Shown here one piece after another: positions 5,709 to 55,946 of a stretch of DNA of 64,000 nucleotides. The translations under genes were made by a program, and so were the position numbers. Numbering within the stretch: position 1 is the first letter of the stretch; every line of letters begins with the position of its first letter. The stretch is from Candidatus Saccharibacteria bacterium RIFCSPHIGHO2_12_FULL_41_12 (GTDB lineage: Bacteria; Patescibacteriota; Saccharimonadia; Saccharimonadales; 2-12-FULL-41-12). The stretch is taken from positions 40,462 through 104,461 of the forward strand of contig MGCQ01000001.1 in NCBI GenBank assembly GCA_001790445.1, written 5' to 3'. The notes beneath the pieces are model-generated. The model had not been told where the DNA came from. It saw only the letters and a program-made list of their open reading frames with translations, and searched no databases.

Positions 5709-6283
5709 TGTCCGATAAATCCACCGCAAAATATATCCCAAGACTCAAAAAGGAGTTTAATGACACCTATAAATCTGAACTAAAGAAAGAACTTGGCCTT
5801 AGCAATATTAATGCTGTTCCTTCACTGGAAAAAATTGTTATAAATATTGGACTCGGAAAATCAAAAGATGACAAAAAAATGTTTGAGGTAGCCACCAATA
5901 CAATTGAAAAGATTACTGGACAGAAACCAATCATGACGTATTCAAAGGTCAATGTGGCGTCTTTTAAGCTTCGAGAAGGTAACAAAATTGGCATGAAAGT
6001 CACTTTGCGTGGTGATCGTATGTTTGAGTTTCTAGACCGTTTTGTCAATATTGTTATGCCTCGTCAAAGAGATTTTCACGGTGTATCAAACAAGTCTTTT
6101 GATTCACAAGGCAACTTTTCAATAGGAGTTGTTGAGCAGTCAATATTTCCAGAACTAAGTTTTGAAGAAACAACCTCGCCACACGGACTTCAAGTGGTTA
6201 TAGTAACAAAATCAAACGGTAAAGAAGAAGCACGGGCTCTTCTTGTGAAGTTCGGTGTACCGTTTATGAAAGAAGGTAAATAA
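5708..6283 (+). CDS. rplE: 50S ribosomal protein L5
   Basis: Length, spc-operon position and conserved central region ([16 protein letters not shown]). Confidence 0.94.
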
Positions 6284-6562: not shown

Positions 6563-6958
6563 ATGGTATCTACAGATCCAATATCAGATATGTTAACGAG
6601 AATACGCAATGCAATAGCTGTGTCAAAAACACAAGTTGAAATGCCATATTCAACTGTGAAGTTTCGGGTTGCTGGAATTTTAAAAGACAATAATTTCCTT
6701 GACGATGTCTCACAAAAGGGAGAAGGCATAAATAGAAAAATTGTCGTAACCATCAACACAGAAAACTCCAATGCGCGTATTACTGAGATAGCAAGGTTGA
6801 GCAAACCCGGACGAAGAAAATACGTCAAAGCTGACCAAGTCCCAACCGTCAAACGTGGACGTGGTATTGTGATAGTTTCTACGTCAAAGGGTCTTATGAC
6901 AGGCGCTGAAGCAAAGAAAACCAACATTGGCGGAGAATTAATTTGTCAGGTATATTAA
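6563..6958 (+). CDS. rpsH: 30S ribosomal protein S8
   Basis: DPISDMLTRIRNA motif. ATG 6563 follows AAGGAG 6553-6558. Confidence 0.94.
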   Translation: MVSTDPISDMLTRIRNAIAVSKTQVEMPYSTVKFRVAGILKDNNFLDDVSQKGEGINRKIVVTINTENSNARITEIARLSKPGRRKYVKADQVPTVKRGRGIVIVSTSKGLMTGAEAKKTNIGGELICQVY

Positions 6959-6959
6959 C

Positions 6960-7070
6960 ATGAGTATAACGAATAACGTATACCGTATAACGGAAAAGGC
7001 TGGATTACTAGTTCAGTCCGTAATACGTAATACGAACCCCGTACTACTGCAACAGGAGGTTGCTCGATGA
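6960..7070 (+). repeat. Structured intergenic insert, copy 3 (111 nt; mini-ORF MSITNNVYRITEKAGLLVQSVIRNTNPVLLQQEVAR)
   Basis: Differs from copy 2 at only 4 positions. ATG lies 1 nt after the rpsH TAA; TGA overlaps the rplF ATG. Confidence 0.8.
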
Positions 7071-19480: not shown

Positions 19481-19555
19481 GCCATCTTAGCTCAGGGGTA
19501 GAGCACATCCATGGTAAGGATGGGGTCTCGGGTTCAAATCCCGAAGATGGCTCCA
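19481..19555 (+). tRNA. tRNA-Thr (GGU), CCA encoded
   Basis: Manual cloverleaf: acceptor GCCATCT/AGATGGC, anticodon loop AT-GGT-AA, T-loop TTCAAAT. Confidence 0.9.
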
Positions 19556-19580
19556 TATATATATATAACAGATATATTTT

Positions 19581-19665
19581 GCAGGGATAGTGAAGTGGTT
19601 AAACACGGTAGACTGTAAATCTACTCCCATCGGGTTCGGGGGTTCGAATCCCTCTCCCTGCACCA
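19581..19665 (+). tRNA. tRNA-Tyr (GUA), long variable arm, CCA encoded
   Basis: Acceptor GCAGGGA/TCCCTGC, anticodon loop CT-GTA-AA, T-arm GGGGG-TTCGAAT-CCCTC. Confidence 0.9.
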
Positions 19666-19778
19666 AAATGTATGCACGGTTTCATAAAGGAACAATCAGC
19701 AAATTGTACGAGTGGGGGAAATACTGGAAAACAAAATCAGACAAATCAAAACAACAGTAGCTATGGTATATTAGACAG

Positions 19779-20030
19779 ATGGAAATAGTTGGATTTGTCG
19801 CTACAGTGTTGACTATATTGGCTTTTTTGCCACAAACTTTCAAAGTTGTGAAGACTCGTGAGACTAGAGATATCGCCTTGCTCACATATCTTACTCTTGT
19901 TGTGACAAGCACATTGTGGACGACGTACGGTGTACTGTTGAACAATCCTGCACTCTATGTAACCAATTCTGCAGTAGGTCTTTGTAGCATAACTATTGTC
20001 ATTTTCAAATTACGTGAGATAAAGAAATAA
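19779..20030 (+). CDS. SemiSWEET / PQ-loop sugar transporter (83 aa, 3 TM)
   Basis: Three hydrophobic helices with an LPQ motif in TM1 (FLPQTFKVVKTRETRDIAL). Confidence 0.7.
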   Translation: MEIVGFVATVLTILAFLPQTFKVVKTRETRDIALLTYLTLVVTSTLWTTYGVLLNNPALYVTNSAVGLCSITIVIFKLREIKK

Positions 20031-20090
20031 AGATAATTTGCAGAATTTAGTTAAACGTTGTATTATATCTATCTACATTTAGTGGTGTAA

Positions 20091-21722
20091 TTGAATATGC
20101 TGAATACATTTTCCCCCGATCATGAATTACTGACTAGGAGCTTGAATAGTCCTGGCGATAGTGTCAACCTGCCAATATTCTATTACGGGGAACACGGTTG
20201 GGCTGATACAACACACAGTGACACCGCTATTAATGGACGCACTTCACAAGAATCAGCGGTGCTAGGTCGCGCTGTTGTAGCTCTTACAGATCAACTTCCA
20301 AACAAAACAAATGAAGATGCTGCGCAATCAAGCTACTTAAAGGGACGTATATTAAATGCTGTTGTCCCTGGGATAACTAGTGGGGAGGTGATAACGCCAC
20401 AAGCACTCGGGTACACATACATACCTGGTCAAGGATTTGCTCAAGTCTTGGAACGAGTAGATTGCCACAGCCCTAGATTAGATGACGAAGGGCTGGAAAG
20501 CCAAAGAGTTAGAGAAGCCAGGCAACTTCTCTGGAGCAAAGCAGAAGAGACAGGGATCCAACCATTGACCCATATACACCCCCAGAACCCTCTGGGGAAA
20601 TCAAATTTTCGGGTGCACTCTGATGGGCGATTGATTTGGCTCGATGGGCGGTCAGATATTCCTCTAGCTGGAGCTGTCGGACGGTTGATCCTGCCACACT
20701 TTGGCTTCTACCAAGACGCGGACGAAAAGTTTGGTAAAGATGGCAGAAACTCTGCTTTCAGTGAGATAGATGCTGAAAAGATCGCAGAGCTAATTGATCA
20801 ATTTAATCTAGATCCTCAGGAGAAAGCTCAACTAAGTGAACTGCTGAATATGTACCAATCTTTACAAGATGTTTTGTCTGAACCCTCTGGCAAAAAACAT
20901 AGAGAGCTTGTGGCAGACGATCTCGAAAATCTAGGTGCTTCAAAAAATCGATTGAGAATAATTCGCTCTTCGGTACTTGGGCATAAAGCCGTTAGAGCAT
21001 TTACAATTGGTGGCTCAGCAGCCACTTATACCGGCGATAAAATACAAAGTACAGCTTTGTCGTTAAAGGACAAGCCAAATTCATATTATTTATATCTTAC
21101 AAATCCTACAATCCGTACACACGCTATTCTTAAGTACACTGTATTAAGAGGGCTGAAGGCCGGCTGTGAGCATGGATCAGTTACAGAAAAGGAATATAAA
21201 GAGGCTCTCGACGTAGTGTCTCCACATGATCTCAGTACATACGTGGGTTTGCAAACGTTTTATTTAGCTAATTCACGAGTATTTGATCTCATAACGGGTT
21301 CTCTAATAGCAACCAATCCCGGGTTTAAAGAATTTTTGACAATATTCACTGCTGGTACAGTAGGTAGTTCGGCAGTCAGAGGGGTAGCAACGGCTATAAC
21401 AAGTCTTTTTAGAGATACTGAGCTTAAAAAGGCCACCATGTCCTCTATGATACCTATGCTTGGTGGCTATACAGCCATTGTTCAGCAAATGATGGCTACT
21501 TATGGAGAATACACTAAAGATATTAAGCACAATACATTTAGGCTACTAGCATCAAATATTTCTAAACTAAGGCTTGGTGGTGGTTGGGGTAGTGACGCAG
21601 AGGAAAAATTATGGCAAAAAAACCAAAACTACAAAACCGTTTATCAAGGAGTAAAAAAAGATACCCAAGCTATAATTAGCCATACCATAGCAATGCTCAA
21701 TAAAGTTAAATCAAAATTTTAA
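20091..21722 (+). CDS. Hypothetical protein (543 aa)
   Basis: Long uninterrupted ORF with no confident family assignment. Weak kinase-like strings (HIHPQN, LIWLDG). Confidence 0.6.
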   Translation: MNMLNTFSPDHELLTRSLNSPGDSVNLPIFYYGEHGWADTTHSDTAINGRTSQESAVLGRAVVALTDQLPNKTNEDAAQSSYLKGRILNAVVPGITSGEVITPQALGYTYIPGQGFAQVLERVDCHSPRLDDEGLESQRVREARQLLWSKAEETGIQPLTHIHPQNPLGKSNFRVHSDGRLIWLDGRSDIPLAGAVGRLILPHFGFYQDADEKFGKDGRNSAFSEIDAEKIAELIDQFNLDPQEKAQLSELLNMYQSLQDVLSEPSGKKHRELVADDLENLGASKNRLRIIRSSVLGHKAVRAFTIGGSAATYTGDKIQSTALSLKDKPNSYYLYLTNPTIRTHAILKYTVLRGLKAGCEHGSVTEKEYKEALDVVSPHDLSTYVGLQTFYLANSRVFDLITGSLIATNPGFKEFLTIFTAGTVGSSAVRGVATAITSLFRDTELKKATMSSMIPMLGGYTAIVQQMMATYGEYTKDIKHNTFRLLASNISKLRLGGGWGSDAEEKLWQKNQNYKTVYQGVKKDTQAIISHTIAMLNKVKSKF

Positions 21723-21725
21723 ATT

Positions 21726-21802
21726 TGGAGCCACCTGTCGGATTCGAACCGACGACTTTCAGTTTACAAAACTGACGCTCTAACCAACTGAGCTAAGGTG
21801 GC
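21726..21802 (-). tRNA. tRNA-Thr (UGU), CCA encoded
   Basis: Reverse complement folds as GCCACCT...AGGTGGC-T-CCA, with anticodon loop TT-TGT-AA. Confidence 0.9.
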
Positions 21803-21810
21803 AAATGTAA

Positions 21811-22224
21811 TTAAGGTTTAGACTTTATATACTTAAGCTTTCGCCAAGCTCTACCTTTACACTTGTTTAAATTTCTATAACTTGGAGTGAGCGAATGACA
21901 GTTAGGGCACAATAAACGTAGATTACTTTCGTTATTGTTTTCAGCATCTCCATCTATATGATCTACTTCAAGCGGGGAATTTCCTGTAACTCTATTTGTT
22001 TTGTTCCAGCCACAAAATGAGCATGCTTGTTTGTTTTTCTCGAGCAAGTATCTACGTATGTGTTTAGAAATATTTCTGGCTGAGATTCCTCTACTGCCTG
22101 TCACTTCATTGTTTTTCCATTTGTTAATGTACTCTTGGTGCTGATAATCTAATTGGCATTGATTTGAGCAGTATATGTACGAAAGTTTTGCTTTTCGATT
22201 ACTGCACATTATGCAATATTCCAT
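21811..22224 (-). CDS. HNH endonuclease
   Basis: EVDHIDGDAENNNESNLRLLCPNCHS HNH core plus N-terminal Cys-rich region. Confidence 0.85.
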   Translation of the reverse strand: MEYCIMCSNRKAKLSYIYCSNQCQLDYQHQEYINKWKNNEVTGSRGISARNISKHIRRYLLEKNKQACSFCGWNKTNRVTGNSPLEVDHIDGDAENNNESNLRLLCPNCHSLTPSYRNLNKCKGRAWRKLKYIKSKP

Positions 22225-22349
22225 CTATCAATTATACCAGCAATAAGACATTTTCTATTACAATAAACTATCTAGTTTTCGTATATAATAAATTTTAACA
22301 AATATGTTACTCGAACTCTATTATTACTTGATAAATTGTTAGGAAATCG

Positions 22350-22378
22350 TTTACATTTCGGTTTTGATCTGTTAAAAT
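22350..22378 (+). promoter_or_regulatory. Putative promoter of rpmG (near-leaderless)
   Basis: TTTACA, 17 nt, TAAAAT (22373-22378). ATG 22388 lies 9 nt downstream with no SD. Confidence 0.4.
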
Positions 22379-22387
22379 AGCATGAAT

Positions 22388-22594
22388 ATGGCGAAGAAGA
22401 ACGACAAACGAAAAATAGTAGGACTTGTCTGTGAAGAAACAGGGCATCGTACATACTACACTAAAAAAAATACGATGAATACTCCCGACAAGCTAGAACT
22501 ACGTAAGTATAATCCACTACTCAGGCGTGTAACCAAATATGTTGAGACTAGTAAGAGCCTTGGTCGTAACGAAGTAAAAGCTCGAAAAAAGTAA
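22388..22594 (+). CDS. rpmG: 50S ribosomal protein L33 (Cys-less form) with C-terminal extension
   Basis: MAKKNDKRKIVGLVCEETGHRTYYTKKNTMNTPDKLELRKYNP matches the L33 pattern. Confidence 0.85.
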   Translation: MAKKNDKRKIVGLVCEETGHRTYYTKKNTMNTPDKLELRKYNPLLRRVTKYVETSKSLGRNEVKARKK

Positions 22595-22623
22595 ATCTTT
22601 TGTACTTTTTGAGTTAAGTGCTA

Positions 22624-25131
22624 TTAGTCTGATATCACGTATTGACTATTATCATCAGCATTTGGCAGGGTAGGAGGCGCTGGTTTGAGCAATATTGCAA
22701 ATGCGGTAACTTTGTTCGGTATTGATCTTTCGAGATAAATCTTTCCACCCATTTGTTCCGTCAGCAATCGCGAGATGTATAAGCCCAAACCAGTACTTTG
22801 CGTATTATCTCTTGTAAGGATGCTTTCTGTTGCTTGTTGAAACTTGCGGAATAACAAGTTTTGATACTTGGGGTCAATGCCTTTGCCGGTGTCTTCTACT
22901 ATAATCTTGACCATATTATTCTCCGTGCTGAGTTTAATAGTAATGGTACCTTGCTCAGTAAACTTACGGCTGTTACCTATAAGATTAACAATGACCTGTC
23001 TCAATCTATCTTTGTCCCCAGAAACATTTGGTATAGCCGCAGCTGGTTTTTGCATCAGTAAAGACAATTTATCCCCAGATACAGTCAAATTGAATTCCCG
23101 AAGAATGCTTTCGCACATCGTCGTTACGTTAATTGACTCTATTTTGAATTCTATTTTGCCAAGCTCTAAACGTGAGGTGTCCAAAAAATCATTAACTATT
23201 TTTATTAAGCGAACGCCAGATTCATGAACATCGTTGATCATTTCGCGTAGCTCAGGTGTTTTCAGCTCGTCAATGAAGTAGCTTTGGATCATGGACATAT
23301 TGCCGACAATCGCAGTCAAAGGCGTTCTCAGCTCGTGAGAAGCAATAGAAAAGAATTCATCGCGAGTGCGTTCCAGGATTTTGGTTTCAGTAATATCTTG
23401 TATGATTATTACGCTACCTATGACTCGACTAGTCGTTCCTATGGTGATCGGCGCGATGAATATATGGAGGAATTTATTGCCAAATTCAAGAGACGTTATT
23501 TCTATTGATCGAGAGTCGTCTCTACAGTTTTTCACATCTTTTGTAAAATCAAGTGTCCCGTCTAAAAGCTGAGACAGAGATGTTAAATTATCTATAGATT
23601 GGTCAATGTGTTTATCAAATAATATTTGTTGAGCAGCAGAATTCAGCATAACAATTTTGTCTGCAGGATCTACCATGATAAAGCCTAGCTGCAAATTATT
23701 TATCGATGCTTGCAGCCTGGCCTGTTCCTCCATGATCTGGTGCGTATAATCTTGGTTTTCTCGTATATAGCGGTTAAAAGCCTGGGACAATACCTGAAAT
23801 TCATCGCCGGTATTAACAGTTGGCGGGTCATATTTACCTGTTTTCTCTGCTTGATTCACAGCCTGAATTAACGAGTTAGTAGCTCGCGTTAACACAGAGT
23901 TAAATATACCAATGGCTGAAATTGTCAGCAATACTATAAACAAACCGCAAAGCGACAAAAACACAGCTATTTTATAAAGAGGGCTATAAAAGTCTGTTTC
24001 ATATACGAGCACCACTAATTTTTGGTCATGATAAGGCTCAAAGACGATCAGCTTTATATCTCCCTTTAAGTCACGAATTGCTCCACGGTCTGCATTCTGA
24101 AATCTAGCTTGTGTCCCTGCAGTTACGTTGTCTACTGGTAAACGTTCATTATTTTGTAACAACCACGCTTTGCTGTTATCCCCGCGTTGCAAATTATCTG
24201 TTACCGGTTCACCCTTTGTGTCCGCACGTTCAATACTCTTTTGCATGTCATTTTGGATATTAGCCGTTAGATTATCTCTGGTTATAGACTGGAACGATTG
24301 CATAAATATCATAATCATTAAGGAGAGGCTGGCAAGCGTCAGGAGCAAAACAACACCGAACACCTTATACGCATATTTTCGTCTCATGACGTCTTCTAAT
24401 TTATATTGCTCAATAATCCGTGAGCGTATTGGTCCCATGAAGCTGTCTATCACCAAGTATTGAAACAACGCTACAAAAAATGATAATACCGCGCCGACAC
24501 CAATATTTTTTATGGTTTCTATCATTGGAGCGTCAGCCCAAAAGTGGACCTGCATAGTCCCGACAGTAAATCCAACAATAGTAAATACTGACATTCTGAC
24601 AGCAACGTTGATAGGGAAGTTGAGCATTCTTCTATAAAGCCGCTCGGGATCGTCTGTGTGTCCGGTTGCGAGGTATTTTGTTATCGGTAAAAAGATGATC
24701 TGGCTAATTGTGTACGTAATCCCTGCAATAATGAACACTTCCCAGTAATATCCAAAAGAAACTATTCTTAGCTGATCAGAGTTCACGTTTGTGGTAACAA
24801 ATTGATAAAAAATGCCAATCAACCAGTACCAGAATACTGCACTGGCCCACTCTATCATAAGAAGTTGAGTGTTAGTACTTATGACGTGTCGTTTTCTCCA
24901 AATTGCGAACAGAGAGACAATAACTATCGATACCAGGGGTATGGTCAAGGTGTAAAATGTGTAAAAGGTAAAATCCCAATCCCGCAATATGCTGACACCG
25001 ATATATCCGCAAACTATTAAGGTGGCGATTGTCATTACTGAGAGAGGAACGGCAATTAGGGGGAGTGAACTACGCAGAGTTTTCCTCTGTGTATCTATTG
25101 TCTGCGTTTGAATATTTTTTGTCATAAGCAA
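22624..25131 (-). CDS. Membrane sensor histidine kinase (835 aa)
   Basis: Multi-TM N-terminus, then FFSIASHELRTPL H-box and a GTGLGLYISR-type ATPase G-box. Confidence 0.88.
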   Translation of the reverse strand: MLMTKNIQTQTIDTQRKTLRSSLPLIAVPLSVMTIATLIVCGYIGVSILRDWDFTFYTFYTLTIPLVSIVIVSLFAIWRKRHVISTNTQLLMIEWASAVFWYWLIGIFYQFVTTNVNSDQLRIVSFGYYWEVFIIAGITYTISQIIFLPITKYLATGHTDDPERLYRRMLNFPINVAVRMSVFTIVGFTVGTMQVHFWADAPMIETIKNIGVGAVLSFFVALFQYLVIDSFMGPIRSRIIEQYKLEDVMRRKYAYKVFGVVLLLTLASLSLMIMIFMQSFQSITRDNLTANIQNDMQKSIERADTKGEPVTDNLQRGDNSKAWLLQNNERLPVDNVTAGTQARFQNADRGAIRDLKGDIKLIVFEPYHDQKLVVLVYETDFYSPLYKIAVFLSLCGLFIVLLTISAIGIFNSVLTRATNSLIQAVNQAEKTGKYDPPTVNTGDEFQVLSQAFNRYIRENQDYTHQIMEEQARLQASINNLQLGFIMVDPADKIVMLNSAAQQILFDKHIDQSIDNLTSLSQLLDGTLDFTKDVKNCRDDSRSIEITSLEFGNKFLHIFIAPITIGTTSRVIGSVIIIQDITETKILERTRDEFFSIASHELRTPLTAIVGNMSMIQSYFIDELKTPELREMINDVHESGVRLIKIVNDFLDTSRLELGKIEFKIESINVTTMCESILREFNLTVSGDKLSLLMQKPAAAIPNVSGDKDRLRQVIVNLIGNSRKFTEQGTITIKLSTENNMVKIIVEDTGKGIDPKYQNLLFRKFQQATESILTRDNTQSTGLGLYISRLLTEQMGGKIYLERSIPNKVTAFAILLKPAPPTLPNADDNSQYVISD

Positions 25132-25233
25132 TCTTTGCTCAAGATTTCCTCCTAAAGCATAACTACTTTATATATTACAACGCCAGTGGAATATCCCAAA
25201 ACTTACTTGGTTATAAGTTGCTTAAAATAATTT

Positions 25234-25308
25234 TGGCAGGGGCACGTGGAATCGAACCACGATCTAAGGTTTTGGAGACCTTTATACTAACCGTTGTACT
25301 ATGCCCCT
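25234..25308 (-). tRNA. tRNA-Trp (CCA anticodon), CCA end encoded
   Basis: Reverse complement: AGGGGCA...TGCCCCT-G-CCA, with anticodon loop CT-CCA-AA. Confidence 0.88.
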
Positions 25309-38979: not shown

Positions 38980-39082
38980 TACATGTTTTGTTACAATATT
39001 TGCATAGTTGCCAGAGACAGTAGCGGCTCGAAAGAGATTTAAGAATGCTACCTAGGTGTTAATCATTTAACGACTTCTAGAC

Positions 39083-39111
39083 TCTTGTTGGCACAAAACA
39101 AGAGTTTTTTT
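39083..39111 (+). terminator. Intrinsic terminator/attenuator in the rplJ leader (possible L10-leader element)
   Basis: CTCTTGTT-ggcaca-AACAAGAG followed by T7, 66 nt upstream of the rplJ ATG. Confidence 0.55.
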
Positions 39112-39176
39112 GTAGCAACTTTTCGGTAAATAACAGGTCGATTACCGGATATATTAACTAAAAAGGCAAAAAATCT

Positions 39177-54414: not shown

Positions 54415-55098
54415 TTAGATTATCTTTCGATTTAATTCATCTTTATTGTACGTTCTTTTGCCAAAATCGTCAACTCTTTTCGCTCCTCTATTAAAGCTAT
54501 ATCTATTCAAATTATCTTTAACGACCGAAACAACGTATACTTTATCCCCTAAATCATCAATGATCTTTTGTACGTTGTTCGGCACCTCTTCGCATGCTTT
54601 TAAGAATCCTTTTCTTTCGATACCTCGTTTTGTGTCAATTTCTCTTGCTTTAGTAATATCCCAAGCCACAAGAGGATCTTGATAGATATAGAATAAGCCA
54701 ACAAAGTATCCATGGTTAAGAGCTCTTTGAATATTGTGTGCACCTTTGCTATGAGCAAAGGTGCCGTCTAGAGCAAAATTATATTTCTTTTCTGTGACAA
54801 TATCTAGAGTCTTCTCGATTATTGGATTAGCTGAATCGCGATACATATAATATTTGTCAGCACTATAATTTTCAAAATATTCCACGATAGTATCTAGGTC
54901 AATTTTGACGAATGGATCAGGTGAGCTTGCGAGAAATTGCTCAAGGAACTCTGTTTTTCCTGCTCCTGGAATACCTGCCATAAAAATAGCAATAGGCTTA
55001 TCTACAGGCACCGCACCTGAAGCTGAAATAATCTTTTCAGCTATCTTCTTACGATTCTTCTTTGCCCATTCTTTATTATTGATAACCCTCATGTTCAC
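54415..55098 (-). CDS. Zeta-toxin-family P-loop kinase-like protein
   Basis: Walker A FMAGIPGAGKTEF; ~227 aa with zeta/AAA_33-like layout. Confidence 0.7.
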   Translation of the reverse strand: MNMRVINNKEWAKKNRKKIAEKIISASGAVPVDKPIAIFMAGIPGAGKTEFLEQFLASSPDPFVKIDLDTIVEYFENYSADKYYMYRDSANPIIEKTLDIVTEKKYNFALDGTFAHSKGAHNIQRALNHGYFVGLFYIYQDPLVAWDITKAREIDTKRGIERKGFLKACEEVPNNVQKIIDDLGDKVYVVSVVKDNLNRYSFNRGAKRVDDFGKRTYNKDELNRKII

Positions 55099-55163
55099 TA
55101 TTATACTTCAAATTCATGACCGTTTAATATATAATTAACACCTGTAGTTGGTGGAAGCTTGAA

Positions 55164-55240
55164 GGTCGAATCCCTCCACTTAACAATTCGAACCCCCACG
55201 TTAGGGTATAATAATGTGTGTTGATGGGATGTGGCCAAGT
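55164..55240 (+). repeat. Direct repeat unit a (T-arm remnant, promoter, and 5' start of tRNA-Gln)
   Basis: Appears identical by eye to 55363-55439 (offset 199 bp). Confidence 0.85.
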
Positions 55241-55377
55241 CGCACTGGCACCAGTTTTTGGTACTGGCATTCGGGGTGAGAACTGCCAGTCGGCAGTTTG
55301 CAAGGAAATCTTCCGATGCCAACTGGTTTGGCAATCGCGAAGTTTCGGACCTGCCAAAGGTAGGTCGAATCCCTCCA
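55225..55377 (+). pseudogene. tRNA-Gln-derived pseudogene interrupted by the 87-nt module E1
   Basis: The 5' half matches tRNA-Gln except for the D-loop. The insert follows GCATTCGGGG. The 3' acceptor strand (CACTTAA) cannot pair with TGGGATG. Confidence 0.7.
55277..55363 (+). repeat. 87-nt structured module E1
   Basis: 80/87 identical to E2. Hairpins AACTGCC/GGCAGTT and TGCCAA/TTGGCA. Confidence 0.8.
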
Positions 55378-55439
55378 CTTAACAATTCGAACCCCCACGT
55401 TAGGGTATAATAATGTGTGTTGATGGGATGTGGCCAAGT
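55363..55439 (+). repeat. Direct repeat unit b
   Basis: See unit a. Contains TAGGGTATAAT (-10 at 55406-55411) 12 nt upstream of the intact tRNA-Gln. Confidence 0.85.
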
Positions 55440-55498
55440 GGTAAGGCACCAGTTTTTGGTACTGGCATTCGGGGGTTCGAATCCCTCCATCCCAGCCA
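55424..55498 (+). tRNA. tRNA-Gln (UUG), CCA encoded
   Basis: TGGGATG...CATCCCA-G-CCA, anticodon loop TT-TTG-GT, T-arm GGGGG-TTCGAAT-CCCTC. Confidence 0.9.
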
Positions 55499-55536
55499 TC
55501 CTCTGTTGTGACCCGTTTTGGGTCACTACGGAGGAT
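55498..55536 (+). other. Hairpin immediately 3' of tRNA-Gln
   Basis: ATCCTC/GAGGAT outer stem and GTGACCC-gtttt-GGGTCAC inner stem. Confidence 0.5.
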
Positions 55537-55572
55537 AATTGTGGATCAAGAGGGATCCGAACACCCGAGTGT

Positions 55573-55692
55573 GCATTCGGGGCGAGGACTGCCTGTCGAC
55601 AGTTCGCAAGGAAATCTTCCGATGTCAACTGATTTGGCAATCGCGAAGTTTCGGACCTGCCAAAGGTAGGTCGAATCCCTCCATCCCAGCCA
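55573..55692 (+). other. tRNA-Gln fragment: GCATTCGGGG, module E2 (55583-55669), then T-loop and correct 3' acceptor strand with CCA
   Basis: The flanks match tRNA-Gln exactly, apart from G for T at the first T-loop base, but no matching 5' acceptor, D arm or anticodon arm lies upstream. Confidence 0.7.
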
Positions 55693-55946
55693 AAAGACTT
55701 CTTCTTCGCGACCCTTTACAGACGCAACTTGATGAAAACATTGGCTGATAGGTAACTGAGGTGTAAAGAGGTATAATAGTTATAGAAATCCAGGCGATTC
55801 ATGCCGGTTGATATATAAATTGGCATTTCTCTTCTCGAAAGAGATTCATTACTGTAATTAAGAAAGGCTAGCTTATTAATATTCTATTTATTAGTCCGAA
55901 CTCTCCGCTCGAAAGCGTAGGCGGCATTGAGCGTTATCTAGTTAAT

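What the first reader, a model, noticed from the sequence alone, without database searches (positions are those of the whole stretch)
55277..55363. 87-nt module inserted at the T-stem/T-loop boundary is itself structured and conserved
E1 (55277-55363) and E2 (55583-55669) are 80/87 identical. They sit at the same position in tRNA-derived sequence, between GCATTCGGGG and GTCGAATCCCTCCA. The intact gene reads GGGGG-TTCGAAT at that point. Predicted hairpins are AACTGCC-agtc-GGCAGTT, GGAA-atc-TTCC and TGCCAA-ctggt-TTGGCA. In E2 the last stem reads TGTCAA...TTGGCA, so the C-to-T change gives a U.G pair and the helix is kept in + strand RNA. At 87 nt, and in the T arm, it is neither a group I intron (longer, and found in the anticodon loop in bacteria) nor a normal variable arm.
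Basis: seen in the sequence. Interest (0 to 1): 0.55.

Follow-up and report, generated by a model that had tools for sequence, protein, structure and literature searches.

The report
Structured RNA module lodged in tRNA copies
The 87-base insert is real and belongs to a previously undescribed family of three-hairpin RNA modules, found only in Saccharibacteria, that sit in the loops of truncated spare tRNA gene copies beside an intact tRNA gene and appear to have spread among tRNA genes.

Summary
E1 (55277-55363) and E2 (55583-55669) are 80/87 identical, with the same flanks.

They are not a local oddity. Two independent exact-word scans plus a covariance model recovered about 130 copies, essentially all in Candidatus Saccharibacteria. 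None was found in phage, plasmid or viral collections, and no Rfam family matches.

Covariation is very strong for three hairpins: 98.4% of cells paired and 19 of 28 pairs with double changes. G.U pairs place the structure on the tRNA-sense strand.

Every copy that lies beside a tRNA (91 of 91) is co-oriented with it. Hosts cover at least 16 amino-acid types. The module sits in the T-, D- or anticodon loop, follows a G, and typically replaces exactly two loop bases.

The interrupted copy is never the working gene. It is either a 5' fragment upstream of an intact tRNA (E1) or a 3' fragment downstream of it (E2). A short antisense copy of the uninterrupted site lies beside it, and in the two window units that were folded it closes a helix around the module.

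No protein gene recurs nearby. One genome holds near-identical copies in tRNA-Met and tRNA-Pro contexts.

Best reading: a new, non-autonomous, loop-targeting structured-RNA element carried in tRNA transcription units. It is not an intron. The insertion mechanism and cellular role remain inferred.

The parts
55107..55135 (+). Promoter-like site (TTCAAA-17-TATAAT) upstream of the whole array
   Evidence: 10 of 12 matches. Consensus match only, not shown to function.
55163..55224 (+). First copy of the repeated spacer. It holds a T-loop/T-stem-3' fragment AGGTCGAATCCCTCCA (55163-55178), then a spacer with the antisense T-arm segment ATTCGAACCCCC (55186-55197) and a TATAAT box.
   Evidence: family D2 is 100% identical to 55362-55439; inverted repeats I2 and I3 pair with GGGGGTTCGAAT of the intact tRNA.
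55225..55276 (+). Truncated tRNA-Gln copy, positions 1-53 only. Its D-loop is altered (CGCACT for GGTAA, so the GG is lost) and it has no 3' acceptor strand.
   Evidence: ARAGORN finds no tRNA here, with or without E1.
55277..55363 (+). E1, a three-hairpin module. P1 is 55280-55287 with 55292-55299. The long P2 spans 55305-55346. P3 is 55348-55355 with 55359-55366.
   Evidence: Covariance model R1 scores it 103.5 bits. Folds. Covariation.
55362..55423 (+). Short right arm (GTCGAATCCCTCCA), then the second copy of the spacer with antisense segment ATTCGAACCCCC (55385-55396), which can close a helix with GGGG(U) at 55273-55277, and a TATAAT box.
   Evidence: the minimum-energy fold closes GGGGG with CCCCC around E1.
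55424..55498 (+). Intact tRNA-Gln(TTG), the working gene
   Evidence: ARAGORN. Rfam tRNA, 65.2 bits.
55499..55535 (+). Hairpin directly after the CCA end (TCCTCTGTTGTGACCC-GTTTT-GGGTCACTACGGAGGA). It occupies the place where the other loci have a terminator hairpin.
55543..55582 (+). Antisense copy of the T arm (GGATCAAGAGGGATCCGAACACCCGA), followed by the short left arm GCATTCGGGG (variable loop plus T-stem 5' strand)
   Evidence: the outer helix 55543-55556 with 55675-55688 and the hairpin CCCGAGU/AUUCGGG enclose E2 (-60 kcal/mol, z -3.7).
55583..55669 (+). E2, the second copy of the module
   Evidence: R1 scores it 93.5 bits. 80/87 identical to E1. Present in independent contig L065.
55670..55692 (+). 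tRNA-Gln 3' fragment (rest of the T-loop, T-stem 3' strand, acceptor 3' strand, GCCA); from 55671 it is identical to the 3' end of the intact gene, and one T-loop T is missing
   Evidence: family D4: 55671-55692 is 100% identical to 55477-55498..
55801..55826 (+). Terminator-like hairpin with a T-rich tail, downstream of the array
   Evidence: Consensus match only.

Best explanation
E1 and E2 belong to an undescribed family of structured RNA modules of about 86-88 nt, confined to Candidatus Saccharibacteria. Each has P1, a long bulged P2 and P3, joined by conserved linkers, and starts (G)UGAGA.

Shown:
- The fold is conserved through compensatory changes on the tRNA-sense strand.
- The module always lies in the same orientation as, and 30-90 nt from, an intact tRNA gene.
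- It sits inside a partial duplicate of that gene, in a loop (T, D or anticodon), after a G. It typically replaces two loop bases.
- The duplicate is either the 5' part upstream of the intact gene (layout A, as E1) or the 3' part downstream of it (layout B, as E2).
- A short antisense copy of the uninterrupted target lies beside the short arm. In the two window units that were folded, it closes a helix around the module in the predicted RNA.
- No protein gene travels with it.
- Copies range from near-identical within one genome, at different tRNAs, to decayed.

Inferred:
- It is a non-autonomous mobile element that recognises its target in folded single-stranded form. That form could be the pre-tRNA, or the displaced sense DNA strand of a transcribed tRNA gene whose cloverleaf exposes the loops.
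- An unidentified enzyme encoded elsewhere inserts it through a precise reaction.
- These tRNA genes are probably single-copy and essential. Only events that also leave an intact gene with its promoter and terminator survive. That would explain why every observed insertion comes with a partial duplication whose outer edge lies near the gene's regulatory boundary.
- Lodged in tRNA transcription units, the module would be made in quantity as part of the tRNA leader or trailer.
- Its structure is preserved either because only intact copies can seed new ones or because the cell now uses it. These are not distinguished here.
For: Family and taxonomic range:
- A 19-mer scan of 185,579 species genomes gave 64 loci. 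Of these, 57 are true copies. Every named one is Saccharibacteria, and 4 MAGs carry no lineage name.
- An independent 22-mer scan of metagenomes gave 65 more copies.
- Covariance model R1 found 60 and 71 hits.

Structure:
- 14 of 28 pairs are compensatory in alignment A1.
- In A3, 98.4% of cells are paired, 19 of 28 pairs show double changes, and the covariation score is 0.315 against at most 0.056 when partners are slid; 0 of 500 shuffles reach it.
- G.U pairs exist only on the + strand.

Context:
- 48 + 43 copies have an intact tRNA within about 100-120 nt. All 91 are on the same strand.
- Layout B gaps are 59-85 nt and layout A gaps 30-54 nt.
- Hosts are His, Ser, Leu, Met, Glu, Tyr, Pro, Ile, Lys, Ala, Arg, Gln, Val, Trp, Cys and Gly.
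- Insertions occur in T-, D- and anticodon loops. Exactly 2 host bases are replaced in 28 of 40 units.

Antisense segment:
- It is host-specific, for example GAATCGAACCC next to a TTCGATT host.
- Duplex energy for a unit's own target against other units' targets is -19.2 vs -16.0 kcal/mol (layout B) and -12.2 vs -9.75 (layout A).
- Predicted folds close around the module.

Mobility:
- L031 (tRNA-Met, layout B) and L046 (tRNA-Pro, layout A) come from one genome and are 98.9% identical.
- E1/E2 and the L009 pair are each other's closest relatives.
- The nearest foreign copy shares the host amino acid in only 5 of 44 cases.
- L050 is a decayed copy.

No partner gene: ORF clustering within 3 kb of 57 copies found no recurring protein.

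Transcription: a promoter-like site lies upstream of the window array and a terminator-like site downstream.
Against: - No transcript data were available, so expression and RNA ends are inferred.
- No filled-versus-empty pair of closely related genomes was found, so the exact inserted DNA and the order of events are not established.
- No candidate enzyme was identified.
- Units next to tRNA-Met in four species share a left arm that does not match their hosts. These look orthologous and long-lived, which fits a maintained gene as well as a mobile element.
- The 98.9% identical pair could reflect gene conversion rather than a recent jump.
- The antisense segment is only moderately host-specific by the energy test, and a cruder test was inconclusive.
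- The junction can be read two ways: two bases replaced, or insertion after G-T with one base lost.
Confidence: 0.55

Rival explanations
1. Domesticated small-RNA gene family. The module is a cellular RNA with a job of its own, for example binding a protein or an RNA. It borrows tRNA promoters, terminators and tRNA-like flanks for expression and processing. The flanking helix is a processing stem, as in rRNA precursors and rRNA intervening sequences cut by RNase III. Spread among tRNA genes would be rare and incidental.
For: - Strong purifying selection on structure.
- Units at the same tRNA and layout recur across species: Gln in the window, L027, L038 and L050; Met in L031, L040, L041 and L062; Ser, Leu and Lys groups as well.
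- The module is better conserved than the hairpin and spacer beside it.
- Persistence in very small genomes.
- The predicted closing helix.
Against: - A single function does not explain why the carrier must be a loop of a tRNA fragment, why the junction is so precise, or why three different loops and at least one non-tRNA hairpin (L055, L063) are used.
- Copies decay (L050, L010, L021).
- Copy number and host tRNA vary between genomes.
- Module similarity does not track the host tRNA.
Confidence: 0.25
2. Scars of integrase-driven integration. tRNA genes are classic attachment sites. The tRNA fragments would be att repeats left by an integrative element or phage, and the module would be the terminal sequence of that element, most of which has since been lost.
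For: - Layout B shows the classic direct repeat of a tRNA 3' part.
- In L092 two complete units flank a 194-aa gene like a small islet.
- The T-loop is a known crossover site for tyrosine integrases (established knowledge: Williams 2002, Nucleic Acids Res).
Against: - No integrase or any other recurring gene lies within 3 kb of 57 copies.
- The window's neighbours are a zeta toxin and glycosyltransferases.
- The supposed element between repeats is only about 160-200 nt in nearly every case.
- D-loop insertions occur.
- Layout A duplicates the 5' part, which integrase sites do not.
- RNA-type covariation with strand-specific G.U pairs is not expected of a recombination site.
- Nothing was found in phage, plasmid or viral collections.
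Confidence: 0.07
3. A new kind of tRNA intron, removed from the transcript to give a working tRNA.
For: - The module sits in tRNA loops, including positions used by archaeal non-canonical introns.
- It starts GUGAG and often ends AC, loosely like group II/III intron boundaries.
- Its size matches the group III introns of Euglena chloroplasts (from memory).
Against: - Every carrier is a fragment lacking half the tRNA.
- An intact uninterrupted gene always lies beside it.
- In-silico removal gives no tRNA.
- Two host bases are missing, so excision would not restore the loop.
- The E1 carrier has also lost the D-loop GG.
Confidence: 0.02
4. Assembly artefact. The tandem arrangement would come from mis-joining strain variants in a metagenome assembly.
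For: Independent contigs break inside the 78-nt repeat (L066 ends at 55416, L065 starts at 55434, L067 ends at 55192). The join at 55417-55433 therefore rests on the repeat.
Against: - E1 with both flanks and E2 with both flanks each lie wholly within an independent contig.
- The same two layouts recur in about 90 loci from unrelated projects.
Confidence: 0.02

Closest known systems
Integrative elements that target tRNA genes (tyrosine-integrase islands and prophages)
   Same: They use tRNA genes, often the T-loop. They leave a partial direct repeat of the tRNA and keep an intact gene.
   Different: - No integrase nearby.
- The inserted material is under 200 nt.
- D-loop sites and 5'-part duplications occur.
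- The conserved part is an RNA-type fold rather than a protein-binding core.
SINEs (tRNA-derived short interspersed elements of eukaryotes)
   Same: Short, non-coding and non-autonomous. A tRNA-derived head is joined to an unrelated conserved body (layout A). They depend on machinery encoded elsewhere and ride on tRNA-type transcription.
   Different: - The tRNA part here is copied from the neighbouring gene, not carried along.
- There is no tail and no target-site duplication.
- Insertions are confined to tRNA loci.
- No reverse transcriptase is implicated.
IS200/IS605-derived hairpin elements and REP/BIME repeats (single-strand DNA transposition by HUH enzymes)
   Same: Small, strand-specific and hairpin-rich, with no terminal inverted repeats or target duplication. 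They insert next to a short specific sequence in single-stranded DNA and are mobilised in trans.
   Different: - The conserved unpaired blocks and the long bulged P2 are unlike REPs.
- Those elements do not replace two bases or produce an accompanying partial gene duplication.
- No transposase was identified.
Archaeal tRNA introns at non-canonical positions, and split or permuted tRNA genes
   Same: Extra sequence in the D-, anticodon- or T-loops of tRNA sequence. tRNA halves are encoded separately.
   Different: - The host is bacterial.
- No bulge-helix-bulge motif is present.
- Carriers are dead fragments next to an intact gene.
- The two modules are the same sense, so the halves cannot pair through them.
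Intervening sequences of bacterial rRNA genes
   Same: A structured insert in a loop of a stable RNA gene, enclosed by a helix that could serve as a processing stem.
   Different: Those sit in the functional gene and are cut out without religation. Here the functional gene is untouched.
Group III introns of Euglena chloroplasts (from memory)
   Same: About 90-110 nt, with a degenerate group II-like 5' end. The module starts GUGAG.
   Different: No domain V or VI equivalents were found. There is no exon continuity to restore and no Rfam group II match.

Membership tests
Group I intron (bacterial tRNA introns) | P1-P9 catalytic core, usually over 200 nt | tested here: not met
   The module is 87 nt. 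No Rfam match of any kind at E up to 10.
Group I intron (bacterial tRNA introns) | Interrupts the anticodon loop of an otherwise complete tRNA gene | tested here: not met
   The T-loop of a truncated copy is interrupted. Removal yields no tRNA.
Archaeal bulge-helix-bulge intron | Removal restores a complete tRNA | tested here: not met
   Carriers lack either the 3' or the 5' half. Two loop bases are missing.
Archaeal bulge-helix-bulge intron | Bulge-helix-bulge motif at both junctions | tested here: not met
   In the predicted folds both junctions lie in a multi-branch loop, with no 3-4-3 motif. This is a prediction only.
Group II / group III intron | 5' GUGYG, domain V hairpin with the catalytic triad, and domain VI with a bulged A | tested here: not met
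   The module starts GUGAG. No hairpin resembles domain V. The A in the 3' strand of P3 is paired. No Rfam group II hit.
MITE / IS-derived miniature element | Terminal inverted repeats | tested here: not met
   No inverted repeat between the module's ends. The ends are GTGAGA... and ...GTGAC(C).
MITE / IS-derived miniature element | Short target-site duplication | tested here: not met
   Two host bases are replaced, not duplicated, in 28 of 40 units.
Integrase-mediated island at a tRNA gene | Integrase gene at one end of the inserted DNA | tested here: not met
   No recurring protein within 3 kb of 57 copies. Window neighbours are a zeta toxin, VanY and glycosyltransferases.
Integrase-mediated island at a tRNA gene | Direct repeat of the tRNA 3' portion bounding the insert | tested here: met
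   Met in layout B only, for example 55477-55498 and 55671-55692. Layout A repeats the 5' portion instead.
Known self-cleaving ribozyme classes (hammerhead, twister, pistol, hatchet, HDV-like, hairpin) | Match to the class consensus structure | tested here: not met
   Rfam 15 with permissive filters gave no hit on the module. Gathering-threshold scans of 15 loci and an E-value (up to 0.1) scan of 4 more gave no hit on the module.
Known self-cleaving ribozyme classes (hammerhead, twister, pistol, hatchet, HDV-like, hairpin) | Self-cleavage activity | not testable with these tools
   Needs an in vitro transcription and cleavage assay.
Retron non-coding RNA | Adjacent reverse transcriptase gene | tested here: not met
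   No recurring neighbouring ORF.
SINE-like retroposon | tRNA-derived head carried with the element, A- or T-rich tail, target-site duplication | tested here: not met
   The tRNA part matches the neighbouring gene rather than a master copy. There is no tail and no duplication.
tmRNA (including two-piece forms) | tRNA-Ala-like domain plus a tag reading frame | tested here: not met
   ARAGORN reports no tmRNA in the window.
IS200/IS605-type single-strand elements | HUH (Y1) transposase in the genome that recognises the end hairpins | not testable with these tools
   Whole genomes could not be retrieved. Only 8-kb loci were held.

The most novel reading that the evidence does not exclude
The module is an RNA-level mobile element. 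It would be a small structured RNA that gets itself written into exposed loops of tRNAs, either in the transcript or in the displaced sense DNA strand of a transcribed gene. The reaction would be precise, swapping two loop bases for about 86 nt. It could be catalysed by the RNA itself (a new small ribozyme) or by an unknown loop-specific enzyme. The insertion would then be fixed in the genome through a cDNA or single-strand intermediate that recombines once with the gene. That single recombination would leave the characteristic half-gene duplicate and the antisense scar. This would be the first bacterial counterpart of a SINE and a new way for RNA to colonise a genome.
Probability: 0.2. Interest if true: 0.9.

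Novelty: categorically new. Interest (0 to 1): 0.75.

Why it matters
- **An unrecognised RNA.** Saccharibacteria have some of the smallest bacterial genomes, yet they keep several copies of this heavily constrained 86-nt RNA fold. No database or searchable paper describes it.
- **Unusual genomic behaviour.** It always sits in a loop of a spare tRNA fragment, always co-oriented, always beside an intact gene, with a precise two-base replacement and an antisense copy of the empty site. No known mobile element, intron or RNA gene behaves this way.
- **If mobile,** it points to an insertion chemistry that reads folded single-stranded nucleic acid. It would also show how essential single-copy genes survive being hit.
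- **If domesticated,** it is an abundant, unstudied RNA in a major uncultivated lineage that includes human oral species.
- **Practical consequences.** The units break metagenome assemblies at tRNA loci, create tRNA-like pseudogenes that confuse annotation, and give a compact lineage marker.

Tried and rejected
1. **Third, older module remnant at 55100-55162.** The local alignment score of 5 is below the shuffle mean of 6.7. Dropped.
2. **Small peptide.** The conserved block reads AAGGAAAyCTTCCGATG, which looks like a ribosome-binding site plus ATG. But the P2 tip varies by 14-17 nt, so the frame and stop are not conserved, and the changes are compensatory for pairing. Rejected.
3. **Rfam.** No match for the module at gathering thresholds or at E up to 10 on the region, nor on 19 further loci.
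4. **tmRNA-like reading of the minus strand (GGGATTCGAC).** This motif is simply the complement of the T-loop, and ARAGORN finds no tmRNA.
5. **Phage, plasmid and viral collections.** No match.
6. **Partner protein.** All-against-all clustering of ORFs within 3 kb found only spurious frames running across the module itself.
7. **The ATTCGAACC motif as a -35 box.** Its spacing to the -10-like boxes varies from 8 to 14 nt across loci. Rejected.
8. **Crude Smith-Waterman test for the antisense segment.** Inconclusive: 7.5 observed against 6.5 control. Replaced by the duplex-energy test.
9. **Exact-protein look-up of the glycosyltransferase ORF.** Nothing on record, probably because the start codon was wrong. 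OtsAB and the 305-aa ORF worked instead.
10. **Literature.** Five searches returned nothing describing this.

Full report
**1. The observation**

E1 (55277-55363) and E2 (55583-55669) are 80/87 identical and share the flanks GCATTCGGGG and GTCGAATCCCTCCA. The only tRNA that ARAGORN and Rfam call in this region is tRNA-Gln(TTG) at 55424-55498, and it reads GGGGG-TTCGAAT at the same point. Two conserved sub-blocks of the module occur twice in the window and never in shuffles. Rfam has nothing for the module even at E = 10.

The layout of the region is as follows:
- A 78-nt block is present twice at 100% identity (55163-55240 and 55362-55439). It holds a T-loop/T-stem-3' fragment, a 46-nt spacer with a TATAAT box, and the first 16 nt of tRNA-Gln.
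- The first block continues into a tRNA-Gln copy that stops at position 53 and has lost the D-loop GG. E1 follows.
- The second block continues into the intact gene.
- After the intact gene come a hairpin, a 40-nt segment, E2, and a copy of the tRNA 3' end through CCA that matches the intact gene apart from one missing T-loop T.

E1 therefore sits in a 5' fragment and E2 in a 3' fragment, on either side of the working gene. Removing either module in silico gives no tRNA.

Independent contigs confirm each unit. L066 ends at 55416 and contains E1 with both flanks. L065 starts at 55434 and contains E2. The contigs break in the 78-nt repeat, so the join itself rests on that repeat.

**2. It is a family**

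An exact 19-mer from the module was scanned over one genome per species of bacteria and archaea. It hit 64 loci. Seven are chance matches in coding DNA. The other 57 are true copies, and every named one is Candidatus Saccharibacteria, Saccharimonadia or Saccharimonadales. Several genomes contribute two or three loci.

An independent 22-mer from the other end of the module found 65 more copies in metagenomes. Most carry a one-base variant of the first word (AAACC for AAATC), so the first scan saw only part of the family. A covariance model built from the first set scores E1 at 103.5 bits and E2 at 93.5 bits. It finds no other copy in the 64-kb window. Phage, plasmid and viral collections have none.

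**3. Structure**

The alignment supports three hairpins:
- P1, 8 bp, with nearly every pair covarying.
- A long P2, whose tip covaries heavily. Its base pairs GAAA.CUUC with GAAG.UUUC.
- P3.

In the first set, 14 of 28 pairs show compensatory changes. In the independent metagenome set:
- 98.4% of cells are paired.
- 19 of 28 pairs have changes on both sides.
- The covariation score is 0.315, against at most 0.056 when partners are slid by one to three columns.
- No shuffle out of 500 reaches the observed values.

G.U pairs such as GAGAAC/GUUUGC exist only on the + strand, so the functional strand is the tRNA-sense strand.

The proposed GGAA-atc-TTCC hairpin is better read as the 5' strand of the P2 base. 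P3 was missed, and in E1 it runs 3 nt past the stated end.

The conserved block resembles a ribosome-binding site plus ATG. The downstream frame is not conserved, so coding is rejected.

**4. Context rules**

ARAGORN was run on oriented segments. In the genome set, 48 of 60 copies have an intact tRNA within about 100 nt. In the metagenome set, 43 of 65 have one within 120 nt. All 91 are on the same strand.

Two layouts account for them:
- Layout B (31 + 31 copies): intact tRNA, terminator hairpin, spacer, 10-14 nt of tRNA (variable loop plus T-stem 5' strand), the module, then the tRNA from the T-loop to CCA. A second copy of the terminator often follows. The gap from the tRNA end to the module is 59-85 nt in most cases.
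- Layout A (17 + 12 copies): the tRNA 5' part, usually with about 25 nt of upstream sequence, the module, 8-15 nt of tRNA, a spacer, then the intact tRNA. The gap is 30-54 nt in most cases.

Hosts span His, Ser, Leu, Met, Glu, Tyr, Pro, Ile, Lys, Ala, Arg, Gln, Val, Trp, Cys and Gly. Most insertions are in the T-loop. L059, L043, L019 and one L049 copy are in the D-loop. L036, L051 and L058 are in the anticodon loop of tRNA-Pro. L055 and L063 carry the module in the loop of a non-tRNA hairpin, again with an intact copy of that hairpin downstream.

A junction analysis against the neighbouring intact gene shows a precise pattern:
- The 5' flank ends in G.
- In 28 of 40 units exactly two host bases are replaced (TT or GT in T-loops, TG or CG in D-loops).
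- The modal module length is 86 nt.
- The other 12 units are alignment ambiguities.
- The junction can equally be read as insertion after G-T with one base lost.

**5. The antisense segment**

Beside the short arm of every unit I read (the tRNA-Gln loci and the layout A spacers) lies a reverse-complement copy of the uninterrupted target:
- Window layout A: ...GGGG-E1-GTCGAATCCCTCCA-CTTAACA-ATTCGAACCCCC.
- Window layout B: GAGGGATCCGAACACCCGA-GTGTGC-ATTCGGGG-E2-GTCGAATCCCTC.

The segment is host-specific:
- GAATCGAACCC beside a TTCGATT host.
- ACTCGAACC beside TTCGAGT.
- CTTGAACC beside TTCAAG.
- TTACCGCTTGC beside the D-loop of L059.

The two layouts are therefore circular permutations of one arrangement. 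A sense strand carries the module and pairs with an antisense strand that lacks it, capped by a loop at one end or the other. RNA folding of the full window units gives exactly this, with z-scores of -3.7 and -3.4.

A duplex-energy test shows that the spacer pairs better with its own module-less target than with those of other units. The medians are -19.2 against -16.0 kcal/mol (layout B) and -12.2 against -9.75 (layout A). Own targets fall in the top tenth about three times more often than chance. This signal is moderate, because T arms are similar to one another.

In L038 the T-loop remnant and the antisense segment share a change that is absent from the intact gene. That fits either a maintained helix or copying from the unit itself.

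**6. Mobility or maintenance**

For mobility:
- No protein family recurs within 3 kb of 57 copies, so the module is non-autonomous.
- In one genome the copy beside tRNA-Met (L031, layout B) and the copy beside tRNA-Pro (L046, layout A) are 98.9% identical. E1/E2 and the L009 pair are also each other's closest relatives.
- Most other within-genome pairs are less alike than copies from different species.
- The nearest foreign copy shares the host amino acid in only 5 of 44 cases.
- Some copies are decayed (L050, L010, L021).

For maintenance:
- Units beside the same tRNA in the same layout recur across species.
- The tRNA-Met units share a left arm that does not match their hosts, so some units are old.

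Both are true: spread among tRNAs over evolutionary time, and long persistence with the structure preserved.

**7. How it most likely works**

Shown: the structure, the strand, the loop and G preference, the precise junction, the co-orientation, the two layouts, the antisense segment, the absence of a partner gene, and the taxonomic restriction.

Inferred:
- The target is recognised in folded single-stranded form. What the three loops share is exposure in the cloverleaf, and orientation is absolute.
- These tRNA genes are probably single-copy and essential. Only insertions that retain an intact, expressible gene are seen. This would explain why the outer edge of the duplicate lies just beyond the -10 box in layout A and at the end of the terminator in layout B. 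In L001 the two terminator copies are identical up to the last T of the run.
- A single recombination between the gene and a small intermediate of the form [short arm, module, long arm, linker] would give both layouts.
- The antisense segment could be a scar of that intermediate or a selected closing helix. I cannot say which.
- In the window, a promoter-like site at 55107-55135 and a terminator-like site at 55801-55826 bracket the array. The modules would then be transcribed with tRNA-Gln.

**8. Comparison with known systems**

The module fails the defining tests for:
- group I, group II/III and archaeal introns;
- MITEs;
- integrase att scars;
- retrons;
- SINEs;
- tmRNA;
- the ribozyme classes in Rfam.

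It resembles tRNA-targeting integrative elements in that a partial repeat is left and the intact gene is kept. It resembles SINEs in being non-coding, in having a tRNA head, and in riding on tRNA transcription. It resembles IS200/IS605-type hairpin elements in strand specificity, in lacking inverted repeats and target duplication, and in targeting single strands. Five literature searches found no description of it.

**9. Verdict**

The implied intron reading is rejected.

The feature is a new family whose structure and genomic rules are well established here. Its mechanism and function remain to be determined.

Noticed in passing
L092 (minus strand), the two model hits at 5987-6092 and 6858-6963: A complete layout B unit of about 230 nt is present twice, 871 nt apart. 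It comprises a tRNA-Gln 3' fragment, terminator, antisense segment, module and tRNA 3' end. The two copies flank a 194-aa hypothetical membrane protein gene, and no intact tRNA lies within 400 nt upstream. It looks like a small gene cassette bounded by units.
   Followed up: partly
L055 770-873 and L063 7452-7556: The module sits in the loop of a non-tRNA hairpin (CTCAAGAGGG|GGTGGGCACCGCTTGAGG). An intact copy of that hairpin lies about 25 nt downstream, followed by a conserved stretch (ATTACACCCTTCAACCCACCC...GTTAAAGGGGTTAGTTTG). Rfam finds nothing there, so the host may be an unrecognised RNA.
   Followed up: partly
L025 3583-3760 and L061 1944-2240: A second, divergent module (GTGAGATGAGCC...GGAGACTTTCTTCATC...GAAATCTCGGGGTCGC) begins right after the GGG at the start of P3 of the first module. 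It is either nested or tandem. Its P2 base covaries with that of the main family.
   Followed up: partly
Loci L001, L003, L005, L007, L027, L028; window 55499-55535: The hairpins that follow these tRNA genes start immediately after CCA. Their outer stems pair with the CCA end itself (for example CACCAAACAAA...TTTGTTTGGTG). This may be a general feature of Saccharibacteria tRNA terminators.
   Followed up: no
window 55417-55433: Three independent contigs end inside or at the 78-nt repeat (L066 at 55416, L065 from 55434, L067 at 55192). These units act as assembly breakpoints, and the join in the window rests on the repeat.
   Followed up: yes
L044 about 5880-6220 and L061 about 2050-2320: The module lies 270-340 nt downstream of tRNA-Leu(TAG). 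A sequence conserved between the two loci precedes it (TTCGCAAGACCGGAG...GAGGTGTGGCGACGGCTGATT...GAGTAAGACCGTGGCAGAAA), along with a weak, decayed model hit. What this stretch is remains unclear.
   Followed up: no
window 54415-55098 (minus strand): A zeta-toxin family kinase gene (Pfam PF06414, E = 1e-26) ends about 65 nt from the start of the array. No antitoxin partner was looked for.
   Followed up: no
window 38993-39119 (+), 19481-25308: There is a ribosomal protein L10 leader and a cluster of tRNA-Thr, Tyr, Thr and Trp genes. None of these tRNAs carries the module.
   Followed up: yes
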